NCBI GenBank assembly: GCA_964393715.1
Contig: CAYMVE010000004.1
Coordinates: forward strand, 1 to 35,539
Source: an uncultured Bacteroidales bacterium
GTDB taxonomy: Bacteria > Bacteroidota > Bacteroidia > Bacteroidales > JALTDM01
Direction: 5' to 3'
Length of the DNA stretch: 35,539 bases
Part shown: in pieces, positions 738-14,682 of the stretch
Layout: every line of letters starts with the position of its first letter
Numbering within the stretch: position 1 is the first letter of the stretch
Position numbers and translations under genes: made by a program
Notes under the pieces: generated by a model
What the model was told of the DNA's origin: nothing
Database searches by the model: none
The model's input: only the letters and a program-made list of their open reading frames with translations

Positions 738-744
738 GTGAGCT

Positions 745-1050: not shown

Positions 1051-1123
1051 ATCGTTGTATATGATAGTTGAATCTACCAAAGAAGAAATCAAAAAATATA
1101 GGAGTTCATCCGGTTTTTTTGTA

Positions 1124-1131: not shown

Positions 1132-1152
1132 CTTAAAATCAAATCTTTTAAT

Positions 1153-1752: not shown

Positions 1753-1758
1753 TGAGAT

Positions 1759-2253
1759 ATGAAAAATAAAAGATTATACACATTAATAATGTTACTATTT
1801 TTAGATTTTGCTTTGTGGGCGCAGGGCCCTGACCAACCCGTTGCGGAAAAACCAAAAAGTGTAAGTGCCGGAGCTTTTGGTGGTGGTGGGTACGGTATCG
1901 GATACCGTGTTTTTTTGAGTAAAAGAATAGCCGTAGAAGGCGTGTTGCTTCCACCGATTACTTTTAGCGATATAGATAATGCCGTTGCTTGCTTGGGGGT
2001 GCGAGGTCAATGGTTTTTTTCCGAAGAAAAGTATTTTAAACCTTATGTGTATTTGGGGACTTCCGCTATTTTTTCCATCAGCCGTACTCCCAGTTATGAA
2101 GCAGGATATGGTGGCGGTGTGGAGCTGAATTACAGCCGTTTTTTTGTAGATGTGAGTGTGGGGGACGTTATGTTTTTGCGTACTTCCTCTCCCGAGGATG
2201 AGCTGCATGTACGCTTCCCGATACCCGGACTCTCTTTTGGGTTTTATTTTTAG
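1759..2253 (+). CDS. Small outer-membrane beta-barrel protein of unknown function
   Basis: Signal peptide ending ALWA-Q, amphipathic strands, and a C-terminal beta-signal GLSFGFYF ending in Phe. Confidence 0.8.
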   Translation: MKNKRLYTLIMLLFLDFALWAQGPDQPVAEKPKSVSAGAFGGGGYGIGYRVFLSKRIAVEGVLLPPITFSDIDNAVACLGVRGQWFFSEEKYFKPYVYLGTSAIFSISRTPSYEAGYGGGVELNYSRFFVDVSVGDVMFLRTSSPEDELHVRFPIPGLSFGFYF

Positions 2254-2280
2254 TATTAGGATTATAAAGTTTTATGGGAG

Positions 2281-2317
2281 ATAATCCGGTTTTGATTTTA
2301 GGGCAAAGCCGGATTAT
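2281..2317. terminator. Long hairpin, possible terminator or RNA-stabilising stem
   Basis: ATAATCCGGTTTTG (2281-2294) pairs with CAAAGCCGGATTAT (2304-2317) with one G-U pair. No clear U tract. Confidence 0.4.
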
Positions 2318-2457
2318 TGCACCAGGAGCATTGAAATGCTGCCCTATCTTTCCAATATATTTCTTACATTGGAAAAAATACTTTGGAAATTTTAATTCCC
2401 TCACTTCCATTGCATACCTACATTTTGGTATTTTTTAGAATATTTAGATATGAAAAT

Positions 2458-2475
2458 TTGTGTTGTAAAACACAT
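2458..2475. promoter_or_regulatory. Palindromic operator candidate (TTGTG-N8-CACAT; Rex- or CRP/FNR-like spacing) upstream of the MBS-like operon
   Basis: TGTGTT-gtaa-AACACA at 2459-2474, about 20 nt upstream of an imperfect -7 box (TATATTTA, 2496-2503). Confidence 0.35.
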
Positions 2476-2531
2476 CGTCAATTTAACTAAACCATTATAT
2501 TTACGCCTGCAAAACAAATCGAAATTAAGAC

Positions 2532-3047
2532 ATGAAGAATAGTACATTTTCGTCGAAAGTGATGCACTTCTTCCTGAGTTGGGGGCTACTTTTCCTTGTT
2601 TGGTTGGCGTTTACCTCCACTACTCAGTCGCAAGAAGTGTTGGTTGGCGCAGGGGTGAGTATGCTTATTGCTTTGTTTACATTAAGGTTTTTTGATTGTT
2701 GTACTTTTTCGTTTTTATCTCCGGTAAGGCTGTTCAATGTGGTGTGGTACATTGTAGTGTTTATTATCGAGATGATAAAAGCGAACCTTGATGTAGCACG
2801 CAGAGTAATTGCTCCTTCGTTGCCCATTAATCCGGGAATTGTAAAAATTCAAACCCGGCTGAAATCCGATTATGCCAAAATGGTTTTGGCAAATAGTATT
2901 ACGCTTACACCCGGTACTTTGTCGGTGGATATAGTGGATGATTACATTTACATTCACTGGATAGATGTGAAAAGTACCGATCCGGAACAAGCATTTAAAG
3001 ACATTGCGGAAACATTTGAAAAAATCTTAATAAAAATCTTTGACTAA
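2532..3047 (+). CDS. mnhE: Mrp-type Na+/H+ antiporter subunit E (MbsA/MbxA of an MBS-like complex)
   Basis: PGIV and LANSITLTPGTLSVD motifs, YIHWID; first gene of the operon. Confidence 0.92.
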   Translation: MKNSTFSSKVMHFFLSWGLLFLVWLAFTSTTQSQEVLVGAGVSMLIALFTLRFFDCCTFSFLSPVRLFNVVWYIVVFIIEMIKANLDVARRVIAPSLPINPGIVKIQTRLKSDYAKMVLANSITLTPGTLSVDIVDDYIYIHWIDVKSTDPEQAFKDIAETFEKILIKIFD

Positions 3048-3316
3048 TGGAAGCATTTAAAGAATTAGCCATTTACATAGCATTTGGTTTTATCATCCTG
3101 GGGATGATATTTGCCTTTATCCGGTTTGTGAAGGGTTCTACGGCAGCAGACAGAACGGTTGCAGTTGATACTTTTACGACCATCGGTGTTGCGGGATTGG
3201 TTTTGTTGGGCTATCTGTTCCAACGCTTTATTTACATCGATGTGGCATTAGTGTATGGGGTACTTGGTTTTATAGGAGTATTGGTAATCGCAAGATATTT
3301 GGAGGACGCATTATGA
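3047..3316 (+). CDS. mnhF: Mrp subunit F (MbsB/MbxB)
   Basis: 89 aa, 3 TM; RFVKGSTAADRTVAVD, YIDVALVY and ARYL motifs; TAATG overlap with the upstream gene. Confidence 0.92.
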   Translation: MEAFKELAIYIAFGFIILGMIFAFIRFVKGSTAADRTVAVDTFTTIGVAGLVLLGYLFQRFIYIDVALVYGVLGFIGVLVIARYLEDAL

Positions 3317-3672
3317 TTCAGATATTGGAATTTATCGGTTTGGTGTTGATTATTATAGGTGCAGTTTTCCTGTTTTTGGGTGCACTTGGCATTTACAGAA
3401 TGCCCGATGTGTATAACAGGTTACAAGCCGGAACCAAGGCAACCACTTTGGGGGGGATGTCTCTAATTATAGGTGTAGGTCTTATCCAACCCGATTGGTT
3501 TTTTAAAACCCTGATTTTGGTTGTTTTTATAGCGCTTTCAAATCCTATTAGTTCACATGCTTTGGCAAGAAGTGCCTATAAGTCTAAAATCAAACCGTTT
3601 TTGAAAGGCGACGAAAACGAAATGGATGCTTATAAAGAAGTGGTTGAAAATAATAAAACTAAGGAGGCATAA
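3313..3672 (+). CDS. mnhG: Mrp subunit G (MbsC/MbxC)
   Basis: GIYRMPDVYNRLQAGTKATTLG and NPISSHALARSAY motifs; ATGA overlap. Confidence 0.93.
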   Translation: MIQILEFIGLVLIIIGAVFLFLGALGIYRMPDVYNRLQAGTKATTLGGMSLIIGVGLIQPDWFFKTLILVVFIALSNPISSHALARSAYKSKIKPFLKGDENEMDAYKEVVENNKTKEA

Positions 3673-3674
3673 AA

Positions 3675-3962
3675 ATGAGTATTCTACTGGTTAGTATCAT
3701 AATAATGGCCATTTTGCTTTTGGGGGCGGCTATTTATGCCGTTATCCAAAAGGATTTGCTTTATGCGGTGATTGCAACATCTATTATCAGTTTGATTTTA
3801 TCCATTATGTTCTATTTGTTGCAAGCTCCGGATGTGGCGCTTACCGAAGCGGCTATCGGTGTGGCTCTTACTACTATTATTTTTGTGATAACCATCCGGA
3901 ACACGGAAAGGTACGAAGATAAAAAGCATGTTAAGGTTGGAAATAAAATAATCAAAAAATGA
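3675..3962 (+). CDS. MbsD/MbhD-like subunit (DUF4040, MrpA C-terminal-like)
   Basis: 95 aa, 3 TM; LQAPDVALTEAAIG motif. Confidence 0.9.
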   Translation: MSILLVSIIIMAILLLGAAIYAVIQKDLLYAVIATSIISLILSIMFYLLQAPDVALTEAAIGVALTTIIFVITIRNTERYEDKKHVKVGNKIIKK

Positions 3963-4669
3963 AGAAGGTAATCGTTTTATTATTGCTTGCAGTTGTCGGG
4001 TATTATCTGGTAGATGTTTTTTCTCAAATATCATTTGGCGAAAACAGATATGAAGGTCAAAATGTAAGGGATTTCTACCTGGATAAATCTAAAAATGACT
4101 TGCAAGTTTCGAATAGTGTAACTGCCATTGTCGTAAACTTTAGAGGATTTGATACCTTGGGAGAAGTAACGGTTTTATTTTTGGCAGCTACGGCATTGGG
4201 AAGTATTTTGTACAGGCGTAGGGAGGATGCGCATGGTGGAGTGGTGCTTTTTAGTGCCAGTAGGATTGTAAGAGCCGGTTCGCATTTGTTGTTTGCTCCC
4301 ATATTGTTGCTGGGTGCTTATGTGTTTATACACGGCCATTTGTCACCTGGTGGAGGATTTCAAGGAGGTACCATTATAGCAACAGGATTTTTGCTGATGT
4401 TATTGGCTTATCATGATTACAAAGTTAGCCATGGTGTTTTGTCATGGGTAGAATCCTTGGCCGGTCTTACTTTTGTGTTTGCCGGTTTGGGCGGATTGAT
4501 TTTAGGCAAGACCTTTTTGGAAAATTTCCTGCCCGTTGGGACCATTAATTATTTGTTCAGCGGCGGTATTATTCCTATTATTTATATTGCTGTAGGGTTC
4601 AAAGTAGGGGCAGAATTGACGGGCGTACTTTATACTTTGTTGAATGAAAAAGAATATAAAAAACAATAA
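3959..4669 (+). CDS. mnhB: Mrp subunit B-like (MbsE; fused MbhE+MbhF equivalent)
   Basis: NSVTAIVVNFRGFDTLGEVTVLF and HGHLSPGGGFQGG motifs. Confidence 0.92.
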   Translation: MKKVIVLLLLAVVGYYLVDVFSQISFGENRYEGQNVRDFYLDKSKNDLQVSNSVTAIVVNFRGFDTLGEVTVLFLAATALGSILYRRREDAHGGVVLFSASRIVRAGSHLLFAPILLLGAYVFIHGHLSPGGGFQGGTIIATGFLLMLLAYHDYKVSHGVLSWVESLAGLTFVFAGLGGLILGKTFLENFLPVGTINYLFSGGIIPIIYIAVGFKVGAELTGVLYTLLNEKEYKKQ

Positions 4670-4672
4670 GTT

Positions 4673-5050
4673 ATGAATCTGGGAAATAATCTTGATATTT
4701 TGACCATTACCTTTTACGGGTCGGCAATACTGCTTATTCTTATAGGTTTGTATGCCGCACTGGTAAAAAGGTCTTTGATTAAAATCGTAATCGGATTGTC
4801 AATAATTGATTCCGGTGTGCATTTGTTGTTGGTATCCATAGGATATTTGCAAGGTGGTACGGCACCGATTTTTTCGCCGGCAGTTATTGACAAAAATCCG
4901 GTAATGGTTGACCCTGTACCGCAAGCACTTGTTCTTACGGCCATTGTTATTGGTTTTGCCGTAACAGCCGTTGCATTGGCATTGGTAATTAGACTTTACA
5001 GACATCATAAAACTGTTAATATTGACGAAATAAAGAATTTAAAATGGTAG
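4673..5050 (+). CDS. mnhC: Mrp subunit C / NuoK-like (MbsG)
   Basis: VDPVPQALVLTAIVIG motif; 3 TM. Confidence 0.93.
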   Translation: MNLGNNLDILTITFYGSAILLILIGLYAALVKRSLIKIVIGLSIIDSGVHLLLVSIGYLQGGTAPIFSPAVIDKNPVMVDPVPQALVLTAIVIGFAVTAVALALVIRLYRHHKTVNIDEIKNLKW

Positions 5051-6540
5051 GAACACCTGTACAACTGATAGCGATTCCGTTATTGGCAGCGTTTTTGATG
5101 CCGCTGCTCGGAAAAGCATGGAAAGAGTTAGTAAGAATAACTCCCGGTGTAGTATTAGTGTATTTGTTGTATTTATCGGTAAATTTGTTGAGCTACACCA
5201 TTGACAACGGAAGGATTGTGGAAATGATAGCCGGGTGGAGTCCACCTTGGGGAATCAATCTGGTATTTTCTCCTTTTAGCGGCTTTCTCGCCACACTGAT
5301 GCTTTTTATGGGGCTTATTGTGTGGATCTATTCTTACAGGTTCAAAAAAATTGAAGATTACGACGATTATGAACCGACTATCAAGTACTATTTGTTATTA
5401 ATGATGTTGATAACGGCATCCGTAGGAATAGTACTTACCGGTGATATCTTCAATTTGTTTGTATTCATAGAAATATTGGGTATTACCGCGTATGGCCTTA
5501 CAGCATTTTACCGAGGACGAGACGGTGCCGAAGCCGCTTTCAAGTATTTGTTTATCGGTTCGTTCTCTTCCGTATTGTTGTTGTTGGCCATTATGATTAT
5601 TTATTCCCAATTGGGCACCTTAAATATGGCTGATATTGCTCAGAAGGCCGGAGAATTGAAGCCGGTTTACAAAATATCGGCACTCGTATTATTTTTGGTT
5701 GCTTTGGGTATTGAGGCCGAAATGTTTCCCCTTAACGGATGGGCACCGGATGCTTATTCACAAGCTCCTGCACCGGTTGGTGCCGCTTTTGCCGGTGTTG
5801 TCGTAAAAGCCGGTCTTTACACAATTATCCGCCTGATATACACTTTGTTTGATGTGGGCGGTACTTACGAATACCTGATTGTCATGGGAATGGTGACAAT
5901 GGTCATTGCCGAATTTGCTGCTATCAGTCAAAACCGCCTGAAAAGAATGCTGGCTTATTCAAGTATCGGACAAATGGGACTGGTATTGGTAGCTTTCGGT
6001 ATTGGAAAAGAAGAAGGGGTATTTGCCGCTTTATTTCTGATGTTTAATCATGCTATCATAAAAGGGCTTTTGTTCCTCTCGGGAAGTTATTTGGTTTATC
6101 ATTCCAAAGATAAATATTTGTCGGAATTGAACGGTATCGGTAAGATTATGCCGCTTACCTCATTCTTGTTTGCGTTGGCCGCTTTTGCCATTGTAGGATT
6201 TCCGCCTTTTGCCGGATTTTGGAGTAAGTTGGCAGTATTAACTGCTGCGGCAGATTCGGGAATGCTGCTTATTGTTGGCTTAATTTTGTCGGTAAGTGTG
6301 ATTGAGGTGGTTTATTACCTGAGGGTAGTGAACCGAATTTATTTTGTAAAGAGGGAAACCGATGTGGAAATCCAAAAGCCGACACCTCAAGCAATGCTTT
6401 CTATGCTGGTACTTGGGGCAATTATTATTGCAGTAGGTTTTTATCCCGATGTTATTACGGGGATATTACACAAAGCCTCTGCTGCTTTATTGGATAAGAC
6501 AACTTATATAAATGAAGTATTAAGTCAAACCATAAATTAA
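5044..6540 (+). CDS. mnhD: Antiporter-like proton-translocating subunit, MrpD/NuoN-like (MbsH)
   Basis: GWSPPWGI, TGDIFNLFVFIE, WAPDAYSQAP, LKRMLAYSSIGQMG and GFPPFAGFWSK motifs. Confidence 0.9.
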   Translation: MVGTPVQLIAIPLLAAFLMPLLGKAWKELVRITPGVVLVYLLYLSVNLLSYTIDNGRIVEMIAGWSPPWGINLVFSPFSGFLATLMLFMGLIVWIYSYRFKKIEDYDDYEPTIKYYLLLMMLITASVGIVLTGDIFNLFVFIEILGITAYGLTAFYRGRDGAEAAFKYLFIGSFSSVLLLLAIMIIYSQLGTLNMADIAQKAGELKPVYKISALVLFLVALGIEAEMFPLNGWAPDAYSQAPAPVGAAFAGVVVKAGLYTIIRLIYTLFDVGGTYEYLIVMGMVTMVIAEFAAISQNRLKRMLAYSSIGQMGLVLVAFGIGKEEGVFAALFLMFNHAIIKGLLFLSGSYLVYHSKDKYLSELNGIGKIMPLTSFLFALAAFAIVGFPPFAGFWSKLAVLTAAADSGMLLIVGLILSVSVIEVVYYLRVVNRIYFVKRETDVEIQKPTPQAMLSMLVLGAIIIAVGFYPDVITGILHKASAALLDKTTYINEVLSQTIN

Positions 6541-6547
6541 AAAAGAT

Positions 6548-8398
6548 ATGAATATCATACACATAACCTTGGGAATATTGCTCGGCGGTGCGGTGCTTAC
6601 CTATTTTGCCCATAAGATTTCCGGTATTTTGAGAGATATTGTCTTTGCCGGTTCTCTTATTGTGGCAACTGTATTGTTTTTTATGCAAATAGCACCCGAT
6701 ACCGTAGCCAATTTTAGTTTGGGCGGTTGGCAACTCTTATTGAGTTTGTCCCATTTCGGATTGTTGTTTTCCTTTATCATATTGGGGCTGGGGGTGTTGG
6801 CAGGCATCTATGCCATTCCTTATATGAAAGATAAAGAAAATCTGGGGTTTTTTTACATGAATTTCTTACTCAGTATCTTCGGAATGCTGGGGATTGTGAT
6901 GGCACAAGATCTGGTTTCCTTTTTTATTTTTTGGGAAATAATGACTTGGTCATCTTACTTACTGGTAGTCTATAACGGTAATGATACCAACAAGATAGGT
7001 ATAAAATACATCGTGTTTAGTGCCATCGGGGCTTATTCGATGCTAACGGCTATCGTAATGATATATTCGCAACTACATAGCTTTAATTGGAGCATTTTGT
7101 TTACTCAATTTACAACTATGCCGGTTGCCTATCAAGTAACGGTAGCAGTACTTTTCACCATAGGATTTGGAGTAAAGGCGGCTATGATGCCTTTGCATGT
7201 ATGGGCACCGGATGCTTACAGTAATGCTCCCATGGCGTTTACTTCCGTGTTTTCCGGGGCACTCTCCAAAATGGGGGTGTACGGGTTGGTATTGGTTTTT
7301 GTAACCATGGTATCTTACTTGCCGGAAAATTTGCTGTTTAGAGAAATTATAGCATGGTTAGGAGCCATTACGGCTGTTATGGGTACCTTGTGGGCTATTT
7401 TCCAGGATGATGCGAAAAAGTTGTTGGCTTATTCTTCGGTGGCTCAGTTAGGGTATATCATTGCCGGTGTAGCTATTGGTACCGAATTGGCTATGATGGC
7501 GGCTTTGTTTTTAGCCGTAATGCACGGAATTTTCAAAGGTACTTTGTTTATGGCTATTGGTGCCGTAGAAAAGCAAGTAGGAACGACCGACCTGACTGTA
7601 CTAACCGGTCTTATCCGAAAAATGCCGCTTACTTTTATTGCTACATTATTGTCGATTATTGCATTAGCCGGCGTTCCGCCTCTTGCCGGTTTTGTTGGTA
7701 AGTGGATGTTGTACGAAGCCATGATTGCTAACGGAAATTATATTCTGGTTATTTTGATATTCTTTTCCAGTACGGCCGCATTTTTGTATTCTTACAAGAT
7801 TTTGTACGGTATCTTTTTAGGACAAGAAGAACCGGAATTTAAAGATGTGAAAGAAGCACCTGCCTTGATGGTAATTCCTATGTTGGTGTTGGCAGCTCTG
7901 CTTTTCTTCTTCGGTTCTTTCCCGGGATATCTTTTGAAATACATTGATAATGCTTTGGTTACCATGGGCTATCCGGTGAGTGAAGGCAAATGGTGGAAAA
8001 TGTCCACCTTGTTTAATGATTGGGGCAACAAAGTAAGCTTGGATTTGGTTTTATATGCTGTTATTACGGTTTTCATTACTCTGGTGGTAATATTGTTTTT
8101 CAGGTGGAAGAATACCCGTTATGTTTCTACAAAAGATATCAGTCTTTCCGGTGAAATGCCGAAAGAAGATGAGAATTACAGTTTCAAATTAGACTTTTTC
8201 AAGCCGTTTGAAAGAGCGGTTTCGCCCTTATTGAGATATAAAATTGAAACTTATTACAACGGATTGGCTTCGGGATTAGAAGCTTTCTTTGATTTTGTAA
8301 GAAGAATTTATAACGGGAATGCACAAATTTATGCCATTTATGTGATTACATTTTTGGTAATATTATTATTGGTTGCAAATCATATTTTTACTGTTTAA
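6548..8398 (+). CDS. Second antiporter-like subunit with C-terminal extension, NuoL/M/MrpA-like (MbsH')
   Basis: FFIFWE, KAAMMPLHVWAPDAY, KKLLAYSSVAQLGY and GVPPLAGFVGKW motifs. The long C-terminal amphipathic segment plus final TM resembles a lateral helix. Confidence 0.9.
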   Translation: MNIIHITLGILLGGAVLTYFAHKISGILRDIVFAGSLIVATVLFFMQIAPDTVANFSLGGWQLLLSLSHFGLLFSFIILGLGVLAGIYAIPYMKDKENLGFFYMNFLLSIFGMLGIVMAQDLVSFFIFWEIMTWSSYLLVVYNGNDTNKIGIKYIVFSAIGAYSMLTAIVMIYSQLHSFNWSILFTQFTTMPVAYQVTVAVLFTIGFGVKAAMMPLHVWAPDAYSNAPMAFTSVFSGALSKMGVYGLVLVFVTMVSYLPENLLFREIIAWLGAITAVMGTLWAIFQDDAKKLLAYSSVAQLGYIIAGVAIGTELAMMAALFLAVMHGIFKGTLFMAIGAVEKQVGTTDLTVLTGLIRKMPLTFIATLLSIIALAGVPPLAGFVGKWMLYEAMIANGNYILVILIFFSSTAAFLYSYKILYGIFLGQEEPEFKDVKEAPALMVIPMLVLAALLFFFGSFPGYLLKYIDNALVTMGYPVSEGKWWKMSTLFNDWGNKVSLDLVLYAVITVFITLVVILFFRWKNTRYVSTKDISLSGEMPKEDENYSFKLDFFKPFERAVSPLLRYKIETYYNGLASGLEAFFDFVRRIYNGNAQIYAIYVITFLVILLLVANHIFTV

Positions 8399-8414
8399 AT
8401 AATAAGTTGGAGTT

Positions 8415-9320
8415 ATGGACATACTAATAAAAATCTTAGGAGCGGTTGCCACAATATTTGTAGCATTTTTGGTTGGAATGCTGTATATGGGGCTTAGTAG
8501 GAAGATCACCGCAAGGGTACAAAATCGAATAGGTCCGCCTGTTTGGCAGAACTATATTGATGCCTTGAAACTCGTATCAAAAACCACTGCGGTACATCAT
8601 GGTATCATGCAACATTTGGCACCGGCCTTTTTGATGGTATCATCGATTGTTACTTTGATGTTCGTACCGGTTTTGAGGGATCACAACTGGTTTCCGAATT
8701 TGAGTTTTCACGGTGACCTGATATTTCTGCTTTATATTATGGTATTCGGTCCGTTGGGTATGGCTTTGGGAGCCGGACAAACCGGCAACCCAAATTCTGC
8801 TATCGGTATTACTCGTGGATTGAGTCAGCTTACCGGTTTTGAAATCCCCTGGGTAATGGCTTTGGTAGCTATTATGATTCAATATGATACTACTTCGGTA
8901 GCCGATGTAATGAAAGTACAGCAGGAACACGGTTGGTTGATGTTCCAAAATCCGTTTGCTTTCATTGCGGCCGTGTTGGCTATGTTAGGAATGTTTCGCT
9001 ATTCTCCGTTTGATATTGTCGGAGCACCTGCTGAATTGGCATCTGGTCCGGTATCCGAGTTTGGAGGTAAGTATTTGGGGCTTATGATGTCGTCCAAATC
9101 CATTTTTGCCTTTGCCAAATTGACTTTGTATGTTGATTTGTTTATGGGCGGTGCTTCCAATTTGATAGAACTGTTGGTAAAAACTTTTGCCTTATACCTT
9201 ATCCCCATGCTGTATGGCATGGTTAGTCCCAGATACAGAACGGAGCAAGCCATTCGTTATTTCTGGGGATGGCCTTTGTTTTTCGGGCTTTTGGCAATTT
9301 TGTATTCAGTAATTTTTTAA
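8415..9320 (+). CDS. nuoH: NuoH-like membrane anchor subunit (MbsM)
   Basis: RKITARVQNRIGPP, PFDIVGAPAELASGPVSEFGG and PRYRTEQ motifs. Confidence 0.92.
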   Translation: MDILIKILGAVATIFVAFLVGMLYMGLSRKITARVQNRIGPPVWQNYIDALKLVSKTTAVHHGIMQHLAPAFLMVSSIVTLMFVPVLRDHNWFPNLSFHGDLIFLLYIMVFGPLGMALGAGQTGNPNSAIGITRGLSQLTGFEIPWVMALVAIMIQYDTTSVADVMKVQQEHGWLMFQNPFAFIAAVLAMLGMFRYSPFDIVGAPAELASGPVSEFGGKYLGLMMSSKSIFAFAKLTLYVDLFMGGASNLIELLVKTFALYLIPMLYGMVSPRYRTEQAIRYFWGWPLFFGLLAILYSVIF

Positions 9321-9332
9321 ATATAGTTAGCA

Positions 9333-9884
9333 ATGATAAACGATAAAAATAGCCAAAAAATAGTTGATATAATCCAAAACTTTGCCCGTAAGCATTCTTT
9401 GTTTGTATTGGCTTACGGAACAGGTTGCGGGGCGATTGAAATACCTCCGACCATGACATCAAGGTACGATGCCGAGAGGTTTGGTATTAGAGGAGCCGCT
9501 ACACCTCGACAAGCCGATGTGCTGCTTATTACCGGATATTTGACCACCAAAACTCTGAAAAGAGTAATAAGAGTCTATGAACAAATGCAGGATCCCAAGT
9601 ATGTTATAGGGTTCGGTTCCTGTACCATAAACGGAGGAATGTATTGGGATTCTTATAACACCATAAAAGTGCTGGACAAATATTTGCCCGTTGATGTATA
9701 TATAAACGGCTGTATGCCACGACCTGAAGCCGTTATAGAAGGGTTTATCAAGTTACAAAAACTTATTGCGGAAGGAAAAGCCAACGGCGCAAAGAAATAT
9801 AAAGAAAATTTGGAATGGTATCGGGCTAATCAGAAAAAAGTATTAGGGCCTACTGTTCCGCACATTCAAGAATATAACTGGTAA
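9333..9884 (+). CDS. nuoB: NuoB-like Fe-S small subunit (MbsJ)
   Basis: TGCGAIE, RYDAERFG, PRQADVL, GSCTINGG and VDVYINGCMPRPE motifs; only three Cys (32, 97, 127). Confidence 0.92.
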   Translation: MINDKNSQKIVDIIQNFARKHSLFVLAYGTGCGAIEIPPTMTSRYDAERFGIRGAATPRQADVLLITGYLTTKTLKRVIRVYEQMQDPKYVIGFGSCTINGGMYWDSYNTIKVLDKYLPVDVYINGCMPRPEAVIEGFIKLQKLIAEGKANGAKKYKENLEWYRANQKKVLGPTVPHIQEYNW

Positions 9885-9896
9885 ACTTGCAAAGTC

Positions 9897-10472
9897 ATGA
9901 TGGAAGAAAAAAAACAATCAATCATAGAAAGATTGCAAAAAGCATTTCCCGAAATAGAGGAAACGAAGGTCGATTATCCTTATAATAGGGTGGACCTGCG
10001 AATTGCCAAAAATAAAATTCCGGCAATCTTGTTTTATCTAAAAGACGAAATGAGATTTATCCACCTTTCTCATATTACTTGTATAGACTGGATAGAAGAC
10101 GAAAAATTTGAATTGATTTTTATCGTTTGGTCGCCGGAGGAAAAAATAAAAGTTTTCGTAAGAACTTTCCTTGACAGGAATAATCCTGTTATGGAAAATA
10201 TTGACATGATATGGCGGCAAGCCAATACTTATGAAAGAGAGTTGAGGGAAATGTTCGGAATTCAATTTGAAGGATTGGTAGCCCCCAAAGAATTTATTTT
10301 GGAAGATTGGGACGATATACCACCTATGAGACGGGATTTTGATACAGAAGCTTATGCTAAAAAACGATTCTTTGAACGACCGGGCCGTGAAGATGCTCGT
10401 GATGTAAGGAAAACTATTGCAGAAAGAACCGGAGAAACCATACCTGAATTTGCAAAGAAATATTCAAGATAA
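9897..10472 (+). CDS. nuoC: NuoC-like subunit (MbsK)
   Basis: ANTYERELREMFGIQFEG and EDWDDIPPMRRDF motifs. Confidence 0.92.
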   Translation: MMEEKKQSIIERLQKAFPEIEETKVDYPYNRVDLRIAKNKIPAILFYLKDEMRFIHLSHITCIDWIEDEKFELIFIVWSPEEKIKVFVRTFLDRNNPVMENIDMIWRQANTYERELREMFGIQFEGLVAPKEFILEDWDDIPPMRRDFDTEAYAKKRFFERPGREDARDVRKTIAERTGETIPEFAKKYSR

Positions 10473-10483
10473 TTTTTGGAACA

Positions 10484-11602
10484 ATGGCAAGAGAAAAAGT
10501 AACAACATTATATTTAGGACCTCAGCACCCCGGTATTACGGGTAACATGATGGTCAGACTGAAGCTCAAAGGAGATACCATAGTCGGAGCAAGAACCGAA
10601 GTCGGTTATCTTCATAGAGGTTTTGAAAAATTACAGGAAAAAAGAAATTGGCTGCAATCTTTTACCATATTGTGCCGTTTCTGTGTTCCCGAACCCGATC
10701 CGGTAGAAGAAGCCTATGCTTTGGCCGTGGAAATGCTAGAAGGAAGAGAAGTGCCTGAAAGGGCAAAATATATCAGAGTGCTGGTGCTGGAAATGGCCCG
10801 TATAGCGTCTTATTTATTGTGGTACGGTGGACAATCGGGGTCTGCCGGACTTTACACAATCGGGCAATGGAGTGTAGGAGACCGGAACTATATACTCGAT
10901 TTGTTTGAAGATTTGACTGGTGGTCGTGTGTATCACATGTTTATCTGGCCGGGCGGCGTAAGACGAGATTTGCCCAGAGGTTTTAAAGATAAGGCCATGA
11001 AAGTAATGGATTATTTGGAAAAGCGTCTGGAAGATTACGATACCCTGCTTTTTGAAAATGCCATTTTCCAAAAAAGAGCACAAGGCGTGGGCGTGATTGA
11101 CAAAAACAAAGCCGTGGAATGGGGAGTAGTAGGGCCGCCGCTTAGAGGATGTGGCATCAAAAGCGATATCCGGATAGATGACCCGTACGAAGTGTATGAT
11201 GAGTTGTACGAAAAAGGTGTATTTGAAGTGCCTGCTTATGAAGGTGGTGATGTTTGGGCAAGGGCTTTGGTTAGAAGATTTGAAATAAGACAGTCCATAA
11301 ATATCATCAGGTATGTTTTGGATAATATGCCGGAAGGAGAATTTTATAACAAGATACCGAATCCACACAAATGGAAATTACCTAAAGGCGATGCTTACTC
11401 CAGAGTGGAAGCTACTCGTGGAGAAATCGGATTCTTTGTAGCAAGCGACGGAGGTATTTATCCGAGAAGGACACACATGAGAGGTGCTGCTTATGTACAC
11501 GGAGTAACACTGCTCGAAAATCTCCTTATAGGAGAAAATGTGGCAGATGTTTCTTTTATTATGAATAGTTTGGGAACTTGTCCACCTGAAATAGAAAGAT
11601 AA
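10484..11602 (+). CDS. nuoD: NuoD/hydrogenase-large-subunit homologue of the MbsL/MbxL type (no NiFe site)
   Basis: GPQHP and GYLHRGFEK motifs. The L1 position reads CRFCVPEPD and the C-terminus reads SLGTCPPEIER, leaving one Cys per hydrogenase CxxC motif. Confidence 0.9.
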   Translation: MAREKVTTLYLGPQHPGITGNMMVRLKLKGDTIVGARTEVGYLHRGFEKLQEKRNWLQSFTILCRFCVPEPDPVEEAYALAVEMLEGREVPERAKYIRVLVLEMARIASYLLWYGGQSGSAGLYTIGQWSVGDRNYILDLFEDLTGGRVYHMFIWPGGVRRDLPRGFKDKAMKVMDYLEKRLEDYDTLLFENAIFQKRAQGVGVIDKNKAVEWGVVGPPLRGCGIKSDIRIDDPYEVYDELYEKGVFEVPAYEGGDVWARALVRRFEIRQSINIIRYVLDNMPEGEFYNKIPNPHKWKLPKGDAYSRVEATRGEIGFFVASDGGIYPRRTHMRGAAYVHGVTLLENLLIGENVADVSFIMNSLGTCPPEIER

Positions 11603-11620
11603 ACATTAAAAATTAAGGTT

Positions 11621-13417
11621 ATGAGTTTTTTTAATTTGAAAGGCACATTAAAACCGCTAACTTCGTTAAAGCAATTTGCCAAGAAACCACATACCATAGA
11701 GTTTCCATTGGAAGCTCCGGAAACAAGCGAAAGATATAGAGGGTTACACTTTAATAATCTGGAATACTGTATTGGGTGCGGCAACTGTTCTACTATCTGT
11801 CAAAATGCGGCAATAGACATGATTCCCGTAGAAGGAATCGAACCTAAAAAAGGAGATTCCGGACTTAGGCCGCGAGTGGACAACGGAAGATGTTGTTGGT
11901 GTGCTTTGTGCGTGGAAGTGTGTCCGACCGGAAGTCTTTCTTTGACAAAGGATTATATATTTGTTTCGGATAATCCGGATGACTTTTTGTGGACGCCTGG
12001 TGTGGACAATCCTGACGGAATCAATTTGATTTCGTTTACTTCTTCGCCGGATACTTCGCTCAATGAATATGAAAGAGTTCCCATGCCGGAACTGGACGGG
12101 AAAGAAAGAGTCAAGTCGTTTGCCGAAGTGGTATTGGGATATCAGGAAGAAGAAGCCCGCAAAGAAGCACAAAGATGTATCAGCTGCGGATTGTGTACCG
12201 AAGCATGTCCCGACCACATGCATATTCCAGAGTATATCAATGCCATAGCAAGTGGTAACGACGAAGATGCCATCCGTATTATTTACGATAACAACCCGTT
12301 GCCGGAAATGTGCGGTAAGGTATGTACCCGCAGATGTGAAGAAGTGTGTGCTATTGCCAAACGAGGCGAACCGCTTGCTATTAGATGGCTCAAAAGATAT
12401 GCTACGGAAAGAGCGGAAAATGCCGATTTGATCAAAGAAATTGTGAATCCTGAAATATTGCCGCCCAATGGCTACAAAGTAGGTATTATCGGAGCCGGTC
12501 CGTCAGGTCTTACGGCTGGTTATTATCTGGCACTCAGAGGCTTTGATGTGACTATTTACGAAGCCCATGATAAGCCGGGCGGTATGACCATGTATGGGAT
12601 ACCTAAATACAGGTTGCCTCTGGAAAGCTTGATGAAGCAAGTGGAATACATGGAAAAAATCGGTGTTAAGATTCATTACAACACCAAAGTAGGTAAGGAT
12701 ATTAGTTTTGAAGAAATTTATGAAAAGTTTGATGCCGTATTTGTGGGAGTAGGTTTTGCCAAGCCATGGACCCTGGGTATAGAAGGAGAAGATTTGGAAG
12801 GCTCTTCGCAAGCGGTATATTTCCTCGAAAGAATCAATAGCGGAGAGAGAATAGATGTTGGTTACAGAGTAGTGGTAATAGGAGGAGGAAATGTGGCAAT
12901 AGACGCTGCCAGAGTATCGAGAAGGTTAGGGGCTGAAGTAGTAATGCTATACAGAAGAAGAATTGAAGACATGCCGGCCGACTGGGAAGAAATAGAAGGA
13001 GCGGAAGCCGAAGGTGTTCAAATTATCCCCCAAACCATACCGATTAAGATTCACGGAGAAAACGGTAAGGTAAAAGCCGTAGAATATTTGAAAGCCGAAA
13101 TGGTGCCAGATCCGAAAGGAGGAAGACCCAGACCTCAGCCGATAGAAGGTAGTAACACCATAATAGAATGTAGCTCGGTATTTGCGGCTATCGGTCAGCA
13201 AGGTGATTACTCTTTCATAGAAGAAAGCAAGTTCAAAGATGCCATTAAGATAGAAAGAGGCAGATTTGTTGTGAATGAAATGCAACAAACAACCCTTGAC
13301 AAAGTGTTTGCCGGTGGTGATGCTGTAAACAGAACGGCTGATGCTATCAGTGCTATTGCCGATGGTTATCGTGCCGTAAAAGGTATCGAAAAATTCTTGC
13401 TGGGAAAGAATAAATAA
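11621..13417 (+). CDS. NuoI-like 2x[4Fe-4S] subunit (MbsN) fused to a GltD/SudA/NfnB-type FAD- and NAD(P)H-binding oxidoreductase
   Basis: N-terminal SERYRGLH, CIGCGNCSTIC and CCWCALCVEVCP; then EAQRCISCGLCTEACP, CGKVCTRRCEEVC, GAGPSG (FAD), GGGNVAID...YRRR (NADPH-type) and VFAGGD. Confidence 0.9.
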   Translation: MSFFNLKGTLKPLTSLKQFAKKPHTIEFPLEAPETSERYRGLHFNNLEYCIGCGNCSTICQNAAIDMIPVEGIEPKKGDSGLRPRVDNGRCCWCALCVEVCPTGSLSLTKDYIFVSDNPDDFLWTPGVDNPDGINLISFTSSPDTSLNEYERVPMPELDGKERVKSFAEVVLGYQEEEARKEAQRCISCGLCTEACPDHMHIPEYINAIASGNDEDAIRIIYDNNPLPEMCGKVCTRRCEEVCAIAKRGEPLAIRWLKRYATERAENADLIKEIVNPEILPPNGYKVGIIGAGPSGLTAGYYLALRGFDVTIYEAHDKPGGMTMYGIPKYRLPLESLMKQVEYMEKIGVKIHYNTKVGKDISFEEIYEKFDAVFVGVGFAKPWTLGIEGEDLEGSSQAVYFLERINSGERIDVGYRVVVIGGGNVAIDAARVSRRLGAEVVMLYRRRIEDMPADWEEIEGAEAEGVQIIPQTIPIKIHGENGKVKAVEYLKAEMVPDPKGGRPRPQPIEGSNTIIECSSVFAAIGQQGDYSFIEESKFKDAIKIERGRFVVNEMQQTTLDKVFAGGDAVNRTADAISAIADGYRAVKGIEKFLLGKNK

Positions 13418-13444
13418 AATCCGTATAAAAATAGGTGTGTTTCT

Positions 13445-13479
13445 AAAAAGCCGCTTCCGTGTCGGGGAGTGGCTTTTTT
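13445..13479 (+). terminator. Rho-independent terminator ending the MBS-like operon
   Basis: AAAAAGCCGCTTCC-gtgtcg-GGGAGTGGCTTTTTT. Confidence 0.85.
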
Positions 13480-13562
13480 ATTGAAACGGGCAATTTTGAT
13501 GACTTTTTCATAAAAAGAAAAATCTTTTGAGTAATATTTGTTTTTTGATAACAAGTATTTGT

Positions 13563-13570
13563 TACTTTTG
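13563..13570 (+). promoter_or_regulatory. Bacteroidota -7 promoter element for the serC operon
   Basis: TACTTTTG 30 nt upstream of the ATG; TTTG at 13537-13540 is a possible -33 element. Confidence 0.65.
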
Positions 13571-13600
13571 TGGTTAAAATAACTTAAAAACGAATAAACT

Positions 13601-14668: not shown

Positions 14669-14682
14669 AAACTTATTGTCTT

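What the first reader, a model, noticed from the sequence alone, without database searches (positions are those of the whole stretch)
2532..13417. Complete MBS/MBX-type (sulfane-sulfur reductase) respiratory operon in a Bacteroidota genome
Seen: 13 tightly coupled genes, Mrp E-F-G-DUF4040-B-C, two antiporter-like subunits, then NuoH-B-C-D-I homologues, with no NuoA/J/E/F/G and no hydrogenase maturation genes in the window. The large subunit reads RFCVPE and CPPEIER. Established: this order and the two-Cys large subunit characterise MBS (formerly MBX) of Pyrococcus/Thermococcus, an evolutionary intermediate between MBH and complex I; similar loci are known in Thermotogota. The flanks are clearly Bacteroidota. 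Inference: energy-conserving polysulfide/S0 respiration in a lineage usually regarded as fermentative, which pipelines would mislabel as 'Mrp antiporter + NADH dehydrogenase'. I do not know of a characterised Bacteroidota example but cannot exclude prior reports.
Basis: partly seen in the sequence, partly recalled or inferred. Interest (0 to 1): 0.9.

Follow-up and report, generated by a model that had tools for sequence, protein, structure and literature searches.

The report
Bacterial MBX/MBS-type complex with NADPH module
This is a 13-gene membrane respiratory complex of the sulfur-reducing MBS/MBX family in a Bacteroidales genome, but its last subunit carries a fused NADPH-binding flavoprotein, the usual bacterial form of this still uncharacterised enzyme rather than a copy of the archaeal one.

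Summary
The 13-gene operon is real, at the stated coordinates. Its core is MBS-type. The large subunit matches P. furiosus MbsL far better than NuoD or MbhL. The NuoB-like subunit keeps exactly the three Cys of the MBS catalytic [4Fe-4S] cluster. Quinone ligands and two of the four [NiFe] Cys are missing.

This fused layout is the common bacterial form: 67 of 74 decidable related loci from many phyla have it. It was described in 2015 for Thermotoga and proteobacteria as "mbx-like".

Within Bacteroidota it is patchy: 41 of 300 sampled genomes of the same order, 2 of 400 of a phylum-wide sample. I found no paper reporting it for Bacteroidota, but one candidate paper was not readable.

Best reading: an ion-translocating NAD(P)H-linked (possibly also ferredoxin-linked) sulfane-sulfur reductase. 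The acceptor and the direction are inferred, not shown.

Contig chimerism is unlikely. Verdict: new member of a known, biochemically uncharacterised bacterial kind; moderate interest.

The parts
2254..2531 (+). Upstream intergenic region, presumed promoter region of the operon
   Evidence: A terminator-like hairpin plus T-run at 2223-2242 closes the upstream gene. The 278-nt gap is the only long non-coding stretch before the operon. No promoter was shown: the sigma-70 scan was at chance level (35 found, 32.4 expected).
2532..3047 (+). MbsA/MrpE-like subunit (171 aa)
   Evidence: PF01899 MNHE, E 1.8e-43
3047..3316 (+). MbsB/MrpF-like subunit (89 aa)
   Evidence: PF04066 MrpF_PhaF, E 5.8e-18
3313..3672 (+). 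MbsC/MrpG-like subunit (119 aa)
   Evidence: PF03334 PhaG_MnhG_YufB, E 1e-25
3675..3962 (+). MbsD/MbhD-like subunit (95 aa; former DUF4040)
   Evidence: PF13244 MbhD, E 2.6e-21
3959..4669 (+). MbsE-like subunit (MbhE + MrpB domains, 236 aa)
   Evidence: PF04039 MnhB E 1.3e-22 and PF20501 MbhE E 2.7e-10
4673..5050 (+). MbsG/MrpC/NuoK-like subunit (125 aa)
   Evidence: PF00420 Oxidored_q2, E 4.1e-28
5044..6540 (+). MbsH-like antiporter-like subunit (498 aa)
   Evidence: Best PDB match is 6u8y_H (MbsH): 325.5 bits, residues 7-493 against 7-488. MbsH E138, E219, K250 and K393 are kept; H330 is Leu here (my reading of the alignment).
6548..8398 (+). MbsH'-like antiporter-like subunit with C-terminal extension (616 aa)
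   Evidence: Best PDB match is 6u8y_X (MbsH'): 318.6 bits, residues 6-607 against 7-614. E128, K217, K248 and K399 are kept; H336 is Leu here.
8415..9320 (+). MbsM/NuoH-like membrane anchor (301 aa)
   Evidence: PF00146 NADHdh, E 9.8e-54
9333..9884 (+). MbsJ/NuoB-like subunit holding the proximal [4Fe-4S] cluster (183 aa)
   Evidence: 6u8y_J scores 235.8 bits against 141 for the next chain. C32, C97 and C127 correspond to MbsJ C28, C93 and C123 with the same spacing. MbsJ C25 is Gly29 here. The three Cys are kept in 69 of 69 homologues.
9897..10472 (+). MbsK/NuoC-like subunit (191 aa)
   Evidence: PF00329 Complex1_30kDa, E 5.5e-26
10484..11602 (+). MbsL-like large subunit (372 aa)
   Evidence: 6u8y_L: 361 bits, E 8e-107, residues 8-372 against 27-391. 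Nqo4 scores 233 bits and MbhL 153 bits. C67 and C366 correspond to MbsL C85 and C385. Nqo4 H38 and Y87 are T19 and V68 here.
11621..13417 (+). Fused subunit (598 aa): an MbsN/NuoI-like 2x[4Fe-4S] domain (res ~14-125), then an NfnB/GltD-like domain with 2x[4Fe-4S], FAD and NAD(P)H sites (res ~150-598)
   Evidence: Pfam: Fer4_9/Fer4_7 at 49-104, Fer4_20 at 163-267, Pyr_redox_2 at 285-582. NF010590, full length, 644 bits. PDB: 5jca_L (NfnI large subunit) 328.5 bits for 151-594; 6u8y_N 79.6 bits for 9-116. Sixteen cluster Cys are kept in 60 of 60 fused homologues. AF2 model: pLDDT 91.5, pTM 0.86. Foldseek top hit 5jca_L, TMt 0.90.

Best explanation
The operon encodes a bacterial member of the MBS/MBX branch of the complex-I superfamily. 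It has three parts: an Mrp-type Na+/H+ module (A, B, C, D, E, G), two antiporter-like pumps (H, H'), and a peripheral arm (M, J, K, L, N).

The catalytic site is of the MBS kind. It is a proximal [4Fe-4S] cluster in J held by only three Cys, with one open iron, facing a chamber formed by L, J and M that lacks the quinone ligands and the [NiFe] site.

Unlike the archaeal enzyme, subunit N is fused to an NfnB/GltD-type flavoprotein. The most likely electron path is NADPH -> FAD -> two [4Fe-4S] (NfnB-like part) -> two [4Fe-4S] (NuoI-like part) -> proximal cluster in J -> a sulfane-sulfur acceptor such as polysulfide. The redox step would be coupled to H+/Na+ translocation. Ferredoxin may still be able to feed the same chain.

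Shown here: gene content, family membership of each subunit, conservation of all cofactor ligands and of most pump residues, and the spread of this architecture. Inferred: the electron path, the nucleotide (NADPH, from the Y-R-R motif), the acceptor, the direction and the ion coupling.
For: (1) L, J, H and H' each have the P. furiosus MBS chain (6u8y) as best solved relative, aligned end to end: 361, 236, 325 and 319 bits, against 233, 141, 211 and 185 for the next different complex.
(2) J keeps the three ligands of the MBS catalytic cluster with identical spacing. The fourth, non-ligating Cys (MbsJ C25) is Gly here. Across 69 homologues the three Cys are invariant, while position 29 is Gly in 39 and Cys in 30. 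This fits the published result that the three-Cys cluster is the catalyst and that C25, C85 and C385 are dispensable (PMC7684303, passages).
(3) The quinone ligands of Nqo4 (H38, Y87) are Thr and Val here. They are never His and always Val in 80 homologues.
(4) N carries all 16 cluster Cys and both Rossmann motifs, invariant in 60 of 60 fused homologues. Its model is confident as one body (pTM 0.86), and the flavoprotein part superposes on NfnI-L at 2.0 A.
(5) The NAD(P)H site reads L-Y-R-R, as in the NADPH-binding NfnI/NfnB chains aligned.
(6) J and L are the best conserved subunits in nearly every related locus. In L040, for example: J 64, L 51, N 37, M 35, H 31, H' 32%. That is expected if catalysis happens at the J/L site.
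(7) Four of the five named charged-axis residues are kept in each pump subunit.
(8) Link to sulfur: T. maritima mbxA rose 4.36-fold after S0 addition (PMC9431562, passages). Many carriers among the 80 best loci are titled as sulfur-cycling taxa such as Sulfurovum, Thiomargarita, Sedimenticola, Ca. Thiodiazotropha and Chromatiales.
(9) This genome has no other NuoD-like gene.
Against: No activity, expression or structure exists for any fused bacterial form; the acceptor is inferred by likeness to one archaeal enzyme.

NADPH to polysulfide spans only about 60 mV at standard potentials (recalled values: -320 and about -260 mV). That is roughly the 12 kJ per 2 e- quoted for MBH (PMC8165549). Yet the complex has two pump subunits like MBS, which works with 42 kJ. 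This fits ferredoxin as donor better than NADPH.

The flavoprotein part is closer to the bifurcating NfnB/NfnI-L (328 bits) than to plain GltD (203 bits), so its clusters could be low-potential.

The vestigial Cys of L vary among homologues (C67 in 69 of 80, C366 in 54 of 80), so they give no extra support.

The same genome has a Psr/Phs-like molybdoenzyme operon that could account for sulfur-compound reduction by itself.

H330 and H336 of the pump subunits are Leu here.

No named P. furiosus sequence could be put in my trees. Its place inside the clade is argued from bit scores only: 361 bits against 348-366 for in-clade representatives and 292 for the best full-length representative that the trees place outside it.
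Confidence: 0.5

Rival explanations
1. Ferredoxin:NAD(P)+ oxidoreductase (the older MBX hypothesis). Reduced ferredoxin is oxidised at the NuoI-like clusters, NAD(P)+ is reduced at the fused flavoprotein, and ions are translocated, in the way Rnf works.
For: This is the function proposed in print for the mbx-like operons with a gltD-related subunit (PMC4758237, passages). The fused module is most like NfnB/NfnI-L, which connects ferredoxin and NADPH. Ferredoxin-reducing enzymes are present: a 2-oxoacid:acceptor oxidoreductase at 32278-35157 on the same contig and an [FeFe] hydrogenase. The ferredoxin-to-NADP+ span would fit two pump subunits.
Against: In this path electrons enter and leave at the tip of the peripheral arm. 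They never pass the J cluster or the L/J/M chamber, the only known coupling site of the superfamily. Yet J and L are the most conserved subunits and the three-Cys cluster is invariant. The genome already has two Rnf/Nqr-type clusters. For the archaeal enzyme the ferredoxin:NADP+ idea was replaced by sulfane reduction (PMC7684303, PMC8165549).
Confidence: 0.2
2. The same machine with another acceptor or the reverse direction. Either the J/L site reduces something other than inorganic polysulfide (an organic persulfide or trisulfide, thiosulfate, or an unknown compound), or the ion gradient drives electrons from sulfide/polysulfide up to NAD(P)+.
For: Many carriers are titled as sulfur-oxidising autotrophs (Chromatiales, Thiomargarita, Ca. 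Thiodiazotropha, Sedimenticola), where reverse flow or reduction of stored sulfur would make sense. The small NADPH/polysulfide span makes the reaction easily reversible (recalled potentials). 55 of 80 homologues, the window included, have an extra Cys three residues before the vestigial Cys of L (C64-x-x-C67), which P. furiosus MbsL lacks. In T. maritima thiosulfate gave larger transcript changes than S0 in the analysed genes, mbxA among them.
Against: Nothing here points to a particular other substrate. The window's organism looks like an anaerobic fermenter ([FeFe] hydrogenase, Rnf/Nqr-type clusters, 2-oxoacid oxidoreductase), for which the forward direction is the natural one. The extra Cys is not universal: position 64 is Pro in 24 of 80 and Leu in 1.
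Confidence: 0.15
3. A strict copy of the archaeal MBS. Ferredoxin is the only donor, polysulfide is the acceptor, and the fused flavoprotein plays no part in the main path (for example it is regulatory or vestigial).
For: Core subunits and gene order match MBS. Two pump subunits fit the large ferredoxin/polysulfide span. The NuoI-like domain aligns to MbsN (79.6 bits).
Against: A vestigial domain would not keep 8 cluster Cys and the FAD and NAD(P)H motifs invariant in 60 of 60 homologues from many phyla. Nor would it be kept fused in 67 of 74 decidable loci.
Confidence: 0.1
4. Assembly artefact: the operon comes from another organism and was joined to Bacteroidales flanks in a chimeric contig.
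For: The flanks of the operon are not shared with the same-genus or same-family loci compared. Only 2453/2565-13407/13419 aligns to G003, L003 and G005, and none of nine flank proteins matches those loci. The genome is a 243-contig assembly.
Against: Operon and flank genes show parallel relatedness to the same genomes. N is 95, 93, 92 and 76% identical in G001, G002, G003 and G005. DUF1015 is 90, 92, 90 and 74% identical; ClpB is 87% (G001), 70% (G003) and 65% (G005). GC content (0.36-0.44) and positive GC skew run evenly through the operon and both flanks up to about 27 kb. An independent assembly of run X1 has contigs spanning 719-3190 and 13057-13824 with no mismatch. A second study (X2) covers all 30 bins of 1-18000. 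X1 may be the source sample, so that is another assembler, not another sample.
Confidence: 0.02

Closest known systems
MBS (membrane-bound sulfane sulfur reductase, formerly MBX) of Pyrococcus furiosus, PDB 6U8Y
   Same: Same 13 subunit types (the subunit list is in PMC7684303; that the gene order is the same is recalled). L, J, H and H' are each the best solved match. The three-Cys proximal cluster is present. Two vestigial [NiFe] Cys are kept. There are no quinone ligands. There are two pump subunits plus an Mrp module.
   Different: N is not a stand-alone ~200-aa ferredoxin-oxidising subunit but is fused to an NfnB/GltD-like FAD/NAD(P)H module. MbsJ C25 is Gly. L has an extra Cys (C64). One His of the charged axis is Leu in both H and H'. 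The organism is a bacterium and is not known to be a thermophile.
Bacterial 'mbx-like' complex of Thermotoga and proteobacteria (Degli Esposti 2015, PMC4758237); T. maritima MBX (PMC9431562)
   Same: An Mrp operon joined to NuoH/B/C/D homologues, with the NuoI position taken by a gltD-related flavoprotein. This is exactly the architecture here and in 67 of 74 related loci. A Thermotogae MAG locus (L062) has the fusion, cut at the contig end. T. maritima mbxA is induced by S0.
   Different: The window's L lies in a Bacteroidales/Ignavibacteriota/Fidelibacterota subclade, not next to the Thermotogota sequence. No Bacteroidota member is named in the passages I read. The Thermotogota-side sequences have Asn and Ala at the two vestigial Cys positions of L.
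NfnB / NfnI large subunit (NADH-dependent ferredoxin:NADP+ oxidoreductase), PDB 5JCA_L and 4YLF_B; GltD
   Same: Residues 151-594 align at 328 and 313 bits, 42% identity, TMt 0.90, rmsd 2.0 A. There are two [4Fe-4S] motifs, FAD and NADPH sites, and the Y-R-R motif.
   Different: No NfnA-like partner is encoded in the operon. The module is fused behind a NuoI-like domain and sits in a membrane complex. Whether its flavin bifurcates is unknown.
Respiratory complex I (Nuo/Nqo)
   Same: Homologous NuoH, B, C, D, I, K and antiporter-like subunits. By analogy, a nucleotide-oxidising flavoprotein sits at the far end of an FeS chain.
   Different: No NuoE/F/G, NuoA or NuoJ families were found in the operon. 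The quinone ligands H38/Y87 are absent. J has a single Cys instead of the tandem Cys. Mrp E/F/G subunits are present.
MBS of the bacterium strain 3DAC (Zhurongbacter) and MbsL genes in Caldisericota, Thermotogota, Thermodesulfobiota and Aquificota (PMC10356935)
   Same: A 13-gene MBS cluster in a bacterium. Expression of 10 of 13 genes rose with S0, and growth was stimulated by S0 (passages).
   Different: That cluster is described as archaea-derived. Whether its N is fused is not stated in the passages I read. Bacteroidota are not among the phyla listed for its MbsL tree; its supplementary figure could not be seen.

Membership tests
MBS (P. furiosus type membrane-bound sulfane sulfur reductase) | Thirteen subunits A, B, C, D, E, G, H, H', M, J, K, L, N encoded together | tested here: met
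   subunit list from PMC7684303.
MBS (P. furiosus type membrane-bound sulfane sulfur reductase) | Proximal [4Fe-4S] in J bound by three Cys only (MbsJ C28, C93, C123) | tested here: met
   C32, C97 and C127 align without gaps to those residues. No fourth Cys is available (Gly29). Invariant in 69 of 69 homologues. Actual coordination was not observed.
MBS (P. furiosus type membrane-bound sulfane sulfur reductase) | L subunit keeps two of the four [NiFe] Cys (C85, C385) and lacks the quinone ligands | tested here: met
   C67 and C366 are kept. The other two ligand positions are E70 and E369. Nqo4 H38/Y87 are T19/V68.
MBS (P. furiosus type membrane-bound sulfane sulfur reductase) | Two antiporter-like subunits (H, H') with the conserved charged axis | tested here: met
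   325 and 319 bits to MbsH and MbsH'. Four of five named residues are kept in each; H330/H336 are Leu.
MBS (P. furiosus type membrane-bound sulfane sulfur reductase) | Stand-alone MbsN with two [4Fe-4S] clusters that takes electrons from ferredoxin | tested here: not met
   N is a 598-aa fusion with an NfnB/GltD-like flavoprotein.
MBS (P. furiosus type membrane-bound sulfane sulfur reductase) | Ferredoxin-dependent polysulfide/DMTS reduction coupled to a Na+ gradient; induction by S0 | not testable with these tools
   Needs biochemistry or transcriptomics.
Bacterial mbx-like complex with gltD-type subunit (Thermotoga type) | Mrp genes plus NuoH/B/C/D homologues in one operon, with the NuoI position carrying a GltD-related flavoprotein | tested here: met
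   The same layout is found in 67 of 74 decidable related loci. Definition from PMC4758237.
Bacterial mbx-like complex with gltD-type subunit (Thermotoga type) | L subunit groups with those of other carriers, apart from NuoD and group 4 hydrogenases | tested here: met
   FastTree, 116 rows: clade of 84 rows, support 95. IQ-TREE quick, 63 rows: clade of 41 rows, SH-aLRT 100, stem 0.58. No named T. maritima or P. furiosus sequence was in the trees.
Complex I (NADH:quinone oxidoreductase) | NuoEFG input module; quinone ligands in NuoD; tandem Cys in NuoB | tested here: not met
   No such families in the operon. T19/V68 replace H38/Y87. J reads G-T-G-C-G, a single Cys.
Group 4 [NiFe] hydrogenase (MBH/Ech type) | Four Cys of the L1/L2 motifs; Hyp maturation genes | tested here: not met
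   Two of four Cys are present. No HypD and no NiFeSe_Hases match in the 99.5% complete genome.
Nfn (NfnAB) transhydrogenase | NfnB-type large subunit together with an NfnA-type small subunit | tested here: not met
   An NfnB-like module is present but no NfnA-like gene is in the operon. The rest of the genome was not searched for NfnA.

The most novel reading that the evidence does not exclude
The fused form is a distinct, very widespread class of bacterial respiratory enzyme: a complex-I-like ion pump that oxidises NAD(P)H through an NfnB/GltD-type module acquired independently of complex I's NuoEFG, and that reduces sulfane sulfur at an open-iron [4Fe-4S] cluster. In organisms such as this one, which have no Nuo complex, it would be the main membrane NAD(P)H dehydrogenase. 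The family would have switched between NADPH and NADH several times (Y-R-R in 29 and x-L-E in 31 of 60 homologues).
Probability: 0.35. Interest if true: 0.7.

Novelty: new member of a known kind. Interest (0 to 1): 0.4.

Why it matters
Annotation pipelines name these genes 'Mrp antiporter', 'NADH-quinone oxidoreductase subunit D' and 'FAD-dependent oxidoreductase' or 'glutamate synthase small chain'. As a result a whole respiratory complex goes unseen in metabolic reconstructions of anaerobic Bacteroidales and many other phyla.

If the enzyme links NAD(P)H to sulfane sulfur with ion pumping, organisms read as plain fermenters in sulfidic sediments and vents would gain energy from sulfur reduction. 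The complex-I family would also contain a second, independent solution for feeding pyridine-nucleotide electrons into an MBS-like core.

The fused bacterial form has no published biochemistry that I could find. The value of this window is mainly as one more, well-preserved example. It also shows that the fused form, not the archaeal one, is what should be characterised.

Tried and rejected
- Survey with NCBIfam NF004739. It turned out to be a generic NuoD model: 344 of 401 sampled genomes and 10 of 14 control genomes scored over its cut-off. It says nothing about MBS-type genes. It was replaced by searches with P0002 and P0001.
A search with the DHVE2 archaeon's L protein listed no Thermococcales name among its best 120. 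The control line says one of 14 named genomes passes the NF010590 cut-off but not which one. So no named P. furiosus or T. maritima sequence is in my trees.
- Promoter scan: 35 sigma-70-like sites against 32.4 expected, so uninformative.
- Expression: no RNA holder was listed for the operon. No conclusion is drawn from this.
- Parts of 1-18000 without cover in runs X3 and X4: no conclusion.
- Literature on Bacteroidota and relatives:
  - 'Mbx' + 'Bacteroidetes' gave 22 papers; of the 20 listed, none is on this complex except a passing MbxL mention in PMC6085437.
  - 'Mbx' with Melioribacter, Ignavibacterium, Caldithrix, Cloacimonadota or Marinimicrobia: none of the 20 listed papers holds 'Mbx'.
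  - MbsL, MbxL, mbx-like, Mbx complex and sulfane reductase terms: 499 papers hold at least one term. Among the 40 listed, the relevant ones concern Thermococcales, T. maritima, strain 3DAC and reviews.
  - 'Sulfidibacterium' and 'VC2.1 Bac22' were also searched.
  - The M. roseus and C. abyssi genome papers do not mention Mrp, Mbh or Mbx in the passages searched.
  - Two papers that may bear on priority were not held: Wu et al. 2018 (PMC6204914) and Leng et al. 2022 on Ca. Sulfidibacteriales.
The MbsL tree of PMC10356935 (Supplementary Fig. 9) may include more phyla.
- Complex prediction was not used: the subunit pairs are textbook pairs.

Full report
**What is there**

Thirteen ORFs on the + strand run from 2532 to 13417. 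Neighbours either overlap or lie at most 18 nt apart. Pfam assigns them, in order, to MNHE (MrpE), MrpF, MnhG, MbhD (the former DUF4040), MbhE+MnhB, Oxidored_q2 (MrpC/NuoK), two Proton_antipo_M proteins of 498 and 616 aa, NADHdh (NuoH), Oxidored_q6 (NuoB), Complex1_30kDa (NuoC) and Complex1_49kDa (NuoD). The large subunit reads LCRFCVPEPD and ends in TCPPEIER.

It missed one thing. The last gene encodes 598 residues. Only residues ~14-125 are NuoI-like (two 4Fe-4S motifs). Residues 163-267 are a Fer4_20 domain and 285-582 a Pyr_redox_2 domain, which together form the GltD/NfnB/DPD-type module. NCBIfam matches the whole length to NF010590 'putative oxidoreductase' (644 bits, below its cut-off of 946). 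It matches the two halves to NuoI models and to glutamate-synthase-small-chain models.

**Which family the core belongs to**

Each core subunit has a chain of the P. furiosus MBS structure (6U8Y) as its best solved relative, aligned end to end.

| Subunit | Best MBS chain (bits) | Other complexes (bits) |
|---|---|---|
| L | MbsL, 361 (E 8e-107) | T. thermophilus Nqo4 233; MbhL 153 |
| J | MbsJ, 236 | next chain 141 |
| H | MbsH, 325 | MbhH 211 |
| H' | MbsH', 319 | MbhH 185 |

According to the MBS structure paper (PMC7684303, passages), the proximal [4Fe-4S] cluster is held by MbsJ C28, C93 and C123 only, and its open iron is the proposed catalyst. C25 of MbsJ and C85/C385 of MbsL are not needed for activity.

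In the window's J, C32, C97 and C127 align to those three residues with the same spacing, and C25 is Gly29. In L, C67 and C366 correspond to C85 and C385, while the other two [NiFe] positions are Glu. The quinone ligands of Nqo4, H38 and Y87, align to T19 and V68. J has one Cys where complex I has two in tandem. The genome, 99.5% complete in 243 contigs, gives no HypD and no NiFeSe_Hases match, and this is its only NuoD-like gene.

Of the five charged-axis residues named for each pump subunit, four are kept in H (E138, E219, K250, K393) and four in H' (E128, K217, K248, K399). H330 and H336 are Leu (residue mapping is my count on the printed alignments).

**The fused subunit**

The flavoprotein part is most like the NADPH-binding large subunit of Nfn: P. 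furiosus NfnI-L scores 328 bits and T. maritima NfnB 313 bits, against 203 bits for A. brasilense GltD. The NuoI-like part aligns to MbsN at 80 bits.

An AlphaFold2 model built on a 68-row alignment has mean pLDDT 91.5 and pTM 0.86. The only dip in confidence is around residues 111-120. Foldseek puts NfnI-L first (TMt 0.90, rmsd 2.0 A, 42% identity), followed by NfnB, Xfn, and the NfnABC and StnABC complexes in which the same module is wired into larger FeS enzymes. I could not measure cluster distances.

**How common the layout is**

There were 595 stretches, of which 590 were confirmed, and the best 80 loci were kept. By record title they come from:
- Bacteroidales MAGs (72-93% identity to L);
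- Melioribacter (71-73%), Neomarinimicrobiota, and Sulfurovum/Nitratifractor (57-59%);
- Spirochaetes, Synergistota, DHVE2 archaea, and many Gammaproteobacteria titled as sulfur oxidisers or symbionts;
- Cloacimonadota, WOR-3/Hydrothermota, Calditrichaceae, Acidobacteriota, Anaerolineales, a Thermotogae MAG and others.

Mapping the window's 13 proteins on these loci shows the same gene order almost everywhere. Of the 80 loci, 74 allow a decision on N:
- 67 have the fusion: 62 complete and 5 cut by the contig end after the fusion point;
- 7 have a short NuoI-only gene: four Campylobacterota, one Synergistota, one DHVE2 archaeon and one Chromatiaceae;
- the other 6 end too early to decide. Six rows that one search printed as 'noN_found' are fused; my distance filter had missed them.

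This is the layout that Degli Esposti described in 2015 for 'Thermotoga and proteobacteria', with NuoI 'substituted by a flavoprotein related to gltD' (PMC4758237, passages).

**Trees**

A FastTree of 116 rows (the window, the 80 loci and 35 representatives) puts all loci and the window in one clade of 84 rows (support 95). This clade is apart from NuoD-like representatives and from the CxxC hydrogenase-like outgroup. An IQ-TREE 'quick' run on 63 rows gives the clade SH-aLRT 100 on a stem of 0.58.

Inside it, the window sits with Bacteroidales MAGs. These are sister to Ignavibacteriota and Fidelibacterota, and then to the unfused Campylobacterota/Chromatiaceae group. The unfused DHVE2/Synergistota pair branches separately.

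No named P. furiosus sequence could be included. Its 361 bits to the window compare with 348-366 for the representatives inside the clade and 292 for the best full-length representative that the trees place outside it. That is my reason for placing it inside.

**Conservation across homologues**

- J: the three ligand Cys are kept in 69 of 69. Position 29 is Gly in 39 and Cys in 30.
- L: C67 is kept in 69 of 80, C366 in 54 of 80, V68 in 80 of 80, and position 19 is never His.
- N: all 16 cluster Cys are kept in 60 of 60 complete fused homologues, and the glycines of both nucleotide-binding motifs are invariant.
- The strand after the second Rossmann motif reads Y-R-R in the window and in 29 of 60 homologues. 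It reads x-L-E in the other 31. By the general rule for Rossmann folds (recalled), this suggests NADPH and NADH forms respectively. NfnI-L and NfnB, which bind NADPH, read Y-R-R in the alignments.

**Distribution in Bacteroidota**

The fused protein has more than 120 clusters at 73-95% identity and 595-605 aa in the protein collection. Where named, they are called Bacteroidetes, Bacteroidales, Chlorobi or Ca. Sulfidibacterium hydrothermale, with the products 'FAD-dependent oxidoreductase', 'oxidoreductase' or 'glutamate synthase small chain'.

| Sample | Genomes with the feature |
|---|---|
| 40 nearest relatives | 9 have a full-length or cut fused N |
| 300 genomes of the same order | 41 match fused N at E <= 1e-120 (35 of 209 genera, G000 counted in) |
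| 400 genomes across the phylum | 2 |

With L as the query, the order sample is bimodal. Hits are either at least 46% identical and at least 333 bits, or at most 40% identical and at most 267 bits (NuoD type). By my count of the listed rows, 46 of 300 genomes have the first kind: 17 with the window's subtype (at least 71%) and 29 with only a second subtype (46-51%). In loci such as L076 that second subtype has H and H' in one ~1045-aa frame. Thirteen of the 17 subtype-A carriers show no NuoD-type hit, against 122 of 254 non-carriers that do. These genomes are related to one another, so this is a weak trend only.

**Is the contig sound?**

The operon aligns at 69-77% nucleotide identity to a same-genus genome (G003), to the same-family genome G005 and to a related Bacteroidales MAG (L003), but the flanks do not align. 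None of nine flank proteins matches those loci.

The flank genes do exist elsewhere in those genomes at matching identity. DUF1015 is 90-92% identical in G001-G003 and 74% in G005. ClpB is 87% (G001), 70% (G003) and 65% (G005). N is 95, 93, 92 and 76% identical in the same four genomes. Composition is even across the junctions.

Contigs of run X1 (a hydrothermal vent metagenome, possibly the source) span 719-3190 and 13057-13824 without a mismatch. A run from a second study covers all 30 bins of 1-18000.

I conclude that the operon belongs to this lineage and that its position has moved between species.

**Mechanism**

The conserved parts define a chain of one flavin and five [4Fe-4S] clusters. 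It runs from an NAD(P)H site to the open-iron cluster in J, which sits above a chamber that cannot bind quinone or nickel. I therefore favour NAD(P)H (here NADPH) to sulfane sulfur, coupled to ion translocation, with ferredoxin as a possible second donor.

For a sulfur acceptor:
- the MBS-type J cluster;
- the 4.36-fold rise of T. maritima mbxA after S0 addition (PMC9431562);
- S0 induction of MBS in strain 3DAC (PMC10356935);
- the many sulfur-cycling carriers.

Against, or left open:
- the small standard span between NADPH and polysulfide (recalled potentials) compared with two pump subunits;
- the closer likeness of the module to bifurcating NfnB than to GltD;
- a Psr/Phs-like molybdoenzyme operon in the same genome;
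- the complete lack of biochemistry for any fused form.

The older ferredoxin:NADP+ reading would bypass the J/L site. Yet J and L are the best conserved subunits in the related loci, and the genome already has two Rnf/Nqr-type clusters.

**Novelty**

The kind is known: archaeal MBS, the bacterial mbx-like operons described in 2015, T. maritima MBX, and strain 3DAC. A Bacteroidota member is not mentioned in anything I could read. However, Leng et al. 2022 on Ca. Sulfidibacteriales, whose genome carries a 77% identical N (P0028), was not held, and supplements were closed.

I rate it a new member of a known kind. The more interesting general point is that the fused, NAD(P)H-linked form dominates in bacteria and has never been characterised.

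Noticed in passing
Own genome, G000:C3:20375-24156 (L086:1376-5157, minus strand); not in the window: A Psr/Phs-type operon. It has a molybdopterin subunit of 747 aa (best NCBIfam hit is thiosulfate reductase PhsA, 503.7 bits, below the cut-off of 694), a 177-aa NrfC/TtrB/DsrO-like FeS subunit and a 331-aa NrfD-like membrane subunit. The organism may therefore have a second, quinone-linked route for reducing sulfur compounds.
   Followed up: partly
window 9417-9419 (J residue 29) and 10673-10675 (L residue 64): Among 70 rows where both positions are known, J position 29 = Gly goes with L position 64 = Cys in 39 of 40. J29 = Cys goes with L64 = Pro in 18, Cys in 11 and Leu in 1. So 69 of 70 have at least one spare Cys near the proximal cluster. 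The pattern follows one large clade, so it may reflect a single event.
   Followed up: partly
window 12950-12958 (N residues 444-446): The nucleotide-specificity strand reads Y-R-R in the window and in 29 of 60 fused homologues. It reads x-L-E in the other 31, mostly Pseudomonadota and Spirochaetota. The two forms are mixed across the tree, which suggests repeated NADPH/NADH switches.
   Followed up: partly
L076, L064, L072 and other loci; G030, G565, G584, G521, G452, G677: A second Mbx-like subtype occurs in Bacteroidales. Its L is 46-51% and its N 42-47% identical to the window's, and H and H' read as one ~1045-aa frame. It lies in a different subclade. Six sampled genomes carry both subtypes.
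   Followed up: partly
window 2453-13419 against L083 (G003), L003, L085 (G005): The operon is conserved as a block, but its neighbours differ in every same-genus or same-family genome compared. It seems to move, or the genomes are heavily rearranged.
   Followed up: partly
window 12732 / 14395: Table 5c of the read-laying output lists one contig of run X2 that joins 12732 to 14395 with 29 other letters between them (depth 4.3). It could be a variant lacking the 3' end of N and the 5' end of the next gene, or a chance short match.
   Followed up: no
Own genome G000:C2:47673-49167: The cytochrome bd subunit I match is split in two pieces with one in-frame TAG.
   Followed up: no
G595:C106, G584:C54, G521:C177, G471:C223: Four N homologues in the order sample carry one in-frame stop (TGA once, TAG three times) inside an otherwise full-length match.
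   Followed up: no
window 234-683, 1129-1752, 1759-2253: Three ORFs upstream of the operon (149, 207 and 164 aa) have no Pfam or NCBIfam match.
   Followed up: no
window 30210-31097 and 32278-35157: The same contig carries an NAD kinase (NF002521, 395.9 bits) and the alpha and beta subunits of a 2-oxoacid:acceptor (ferredoxin) oxidoreductase. These would be sources of NADP and of reduced ferredoxin.
   Followed up: no
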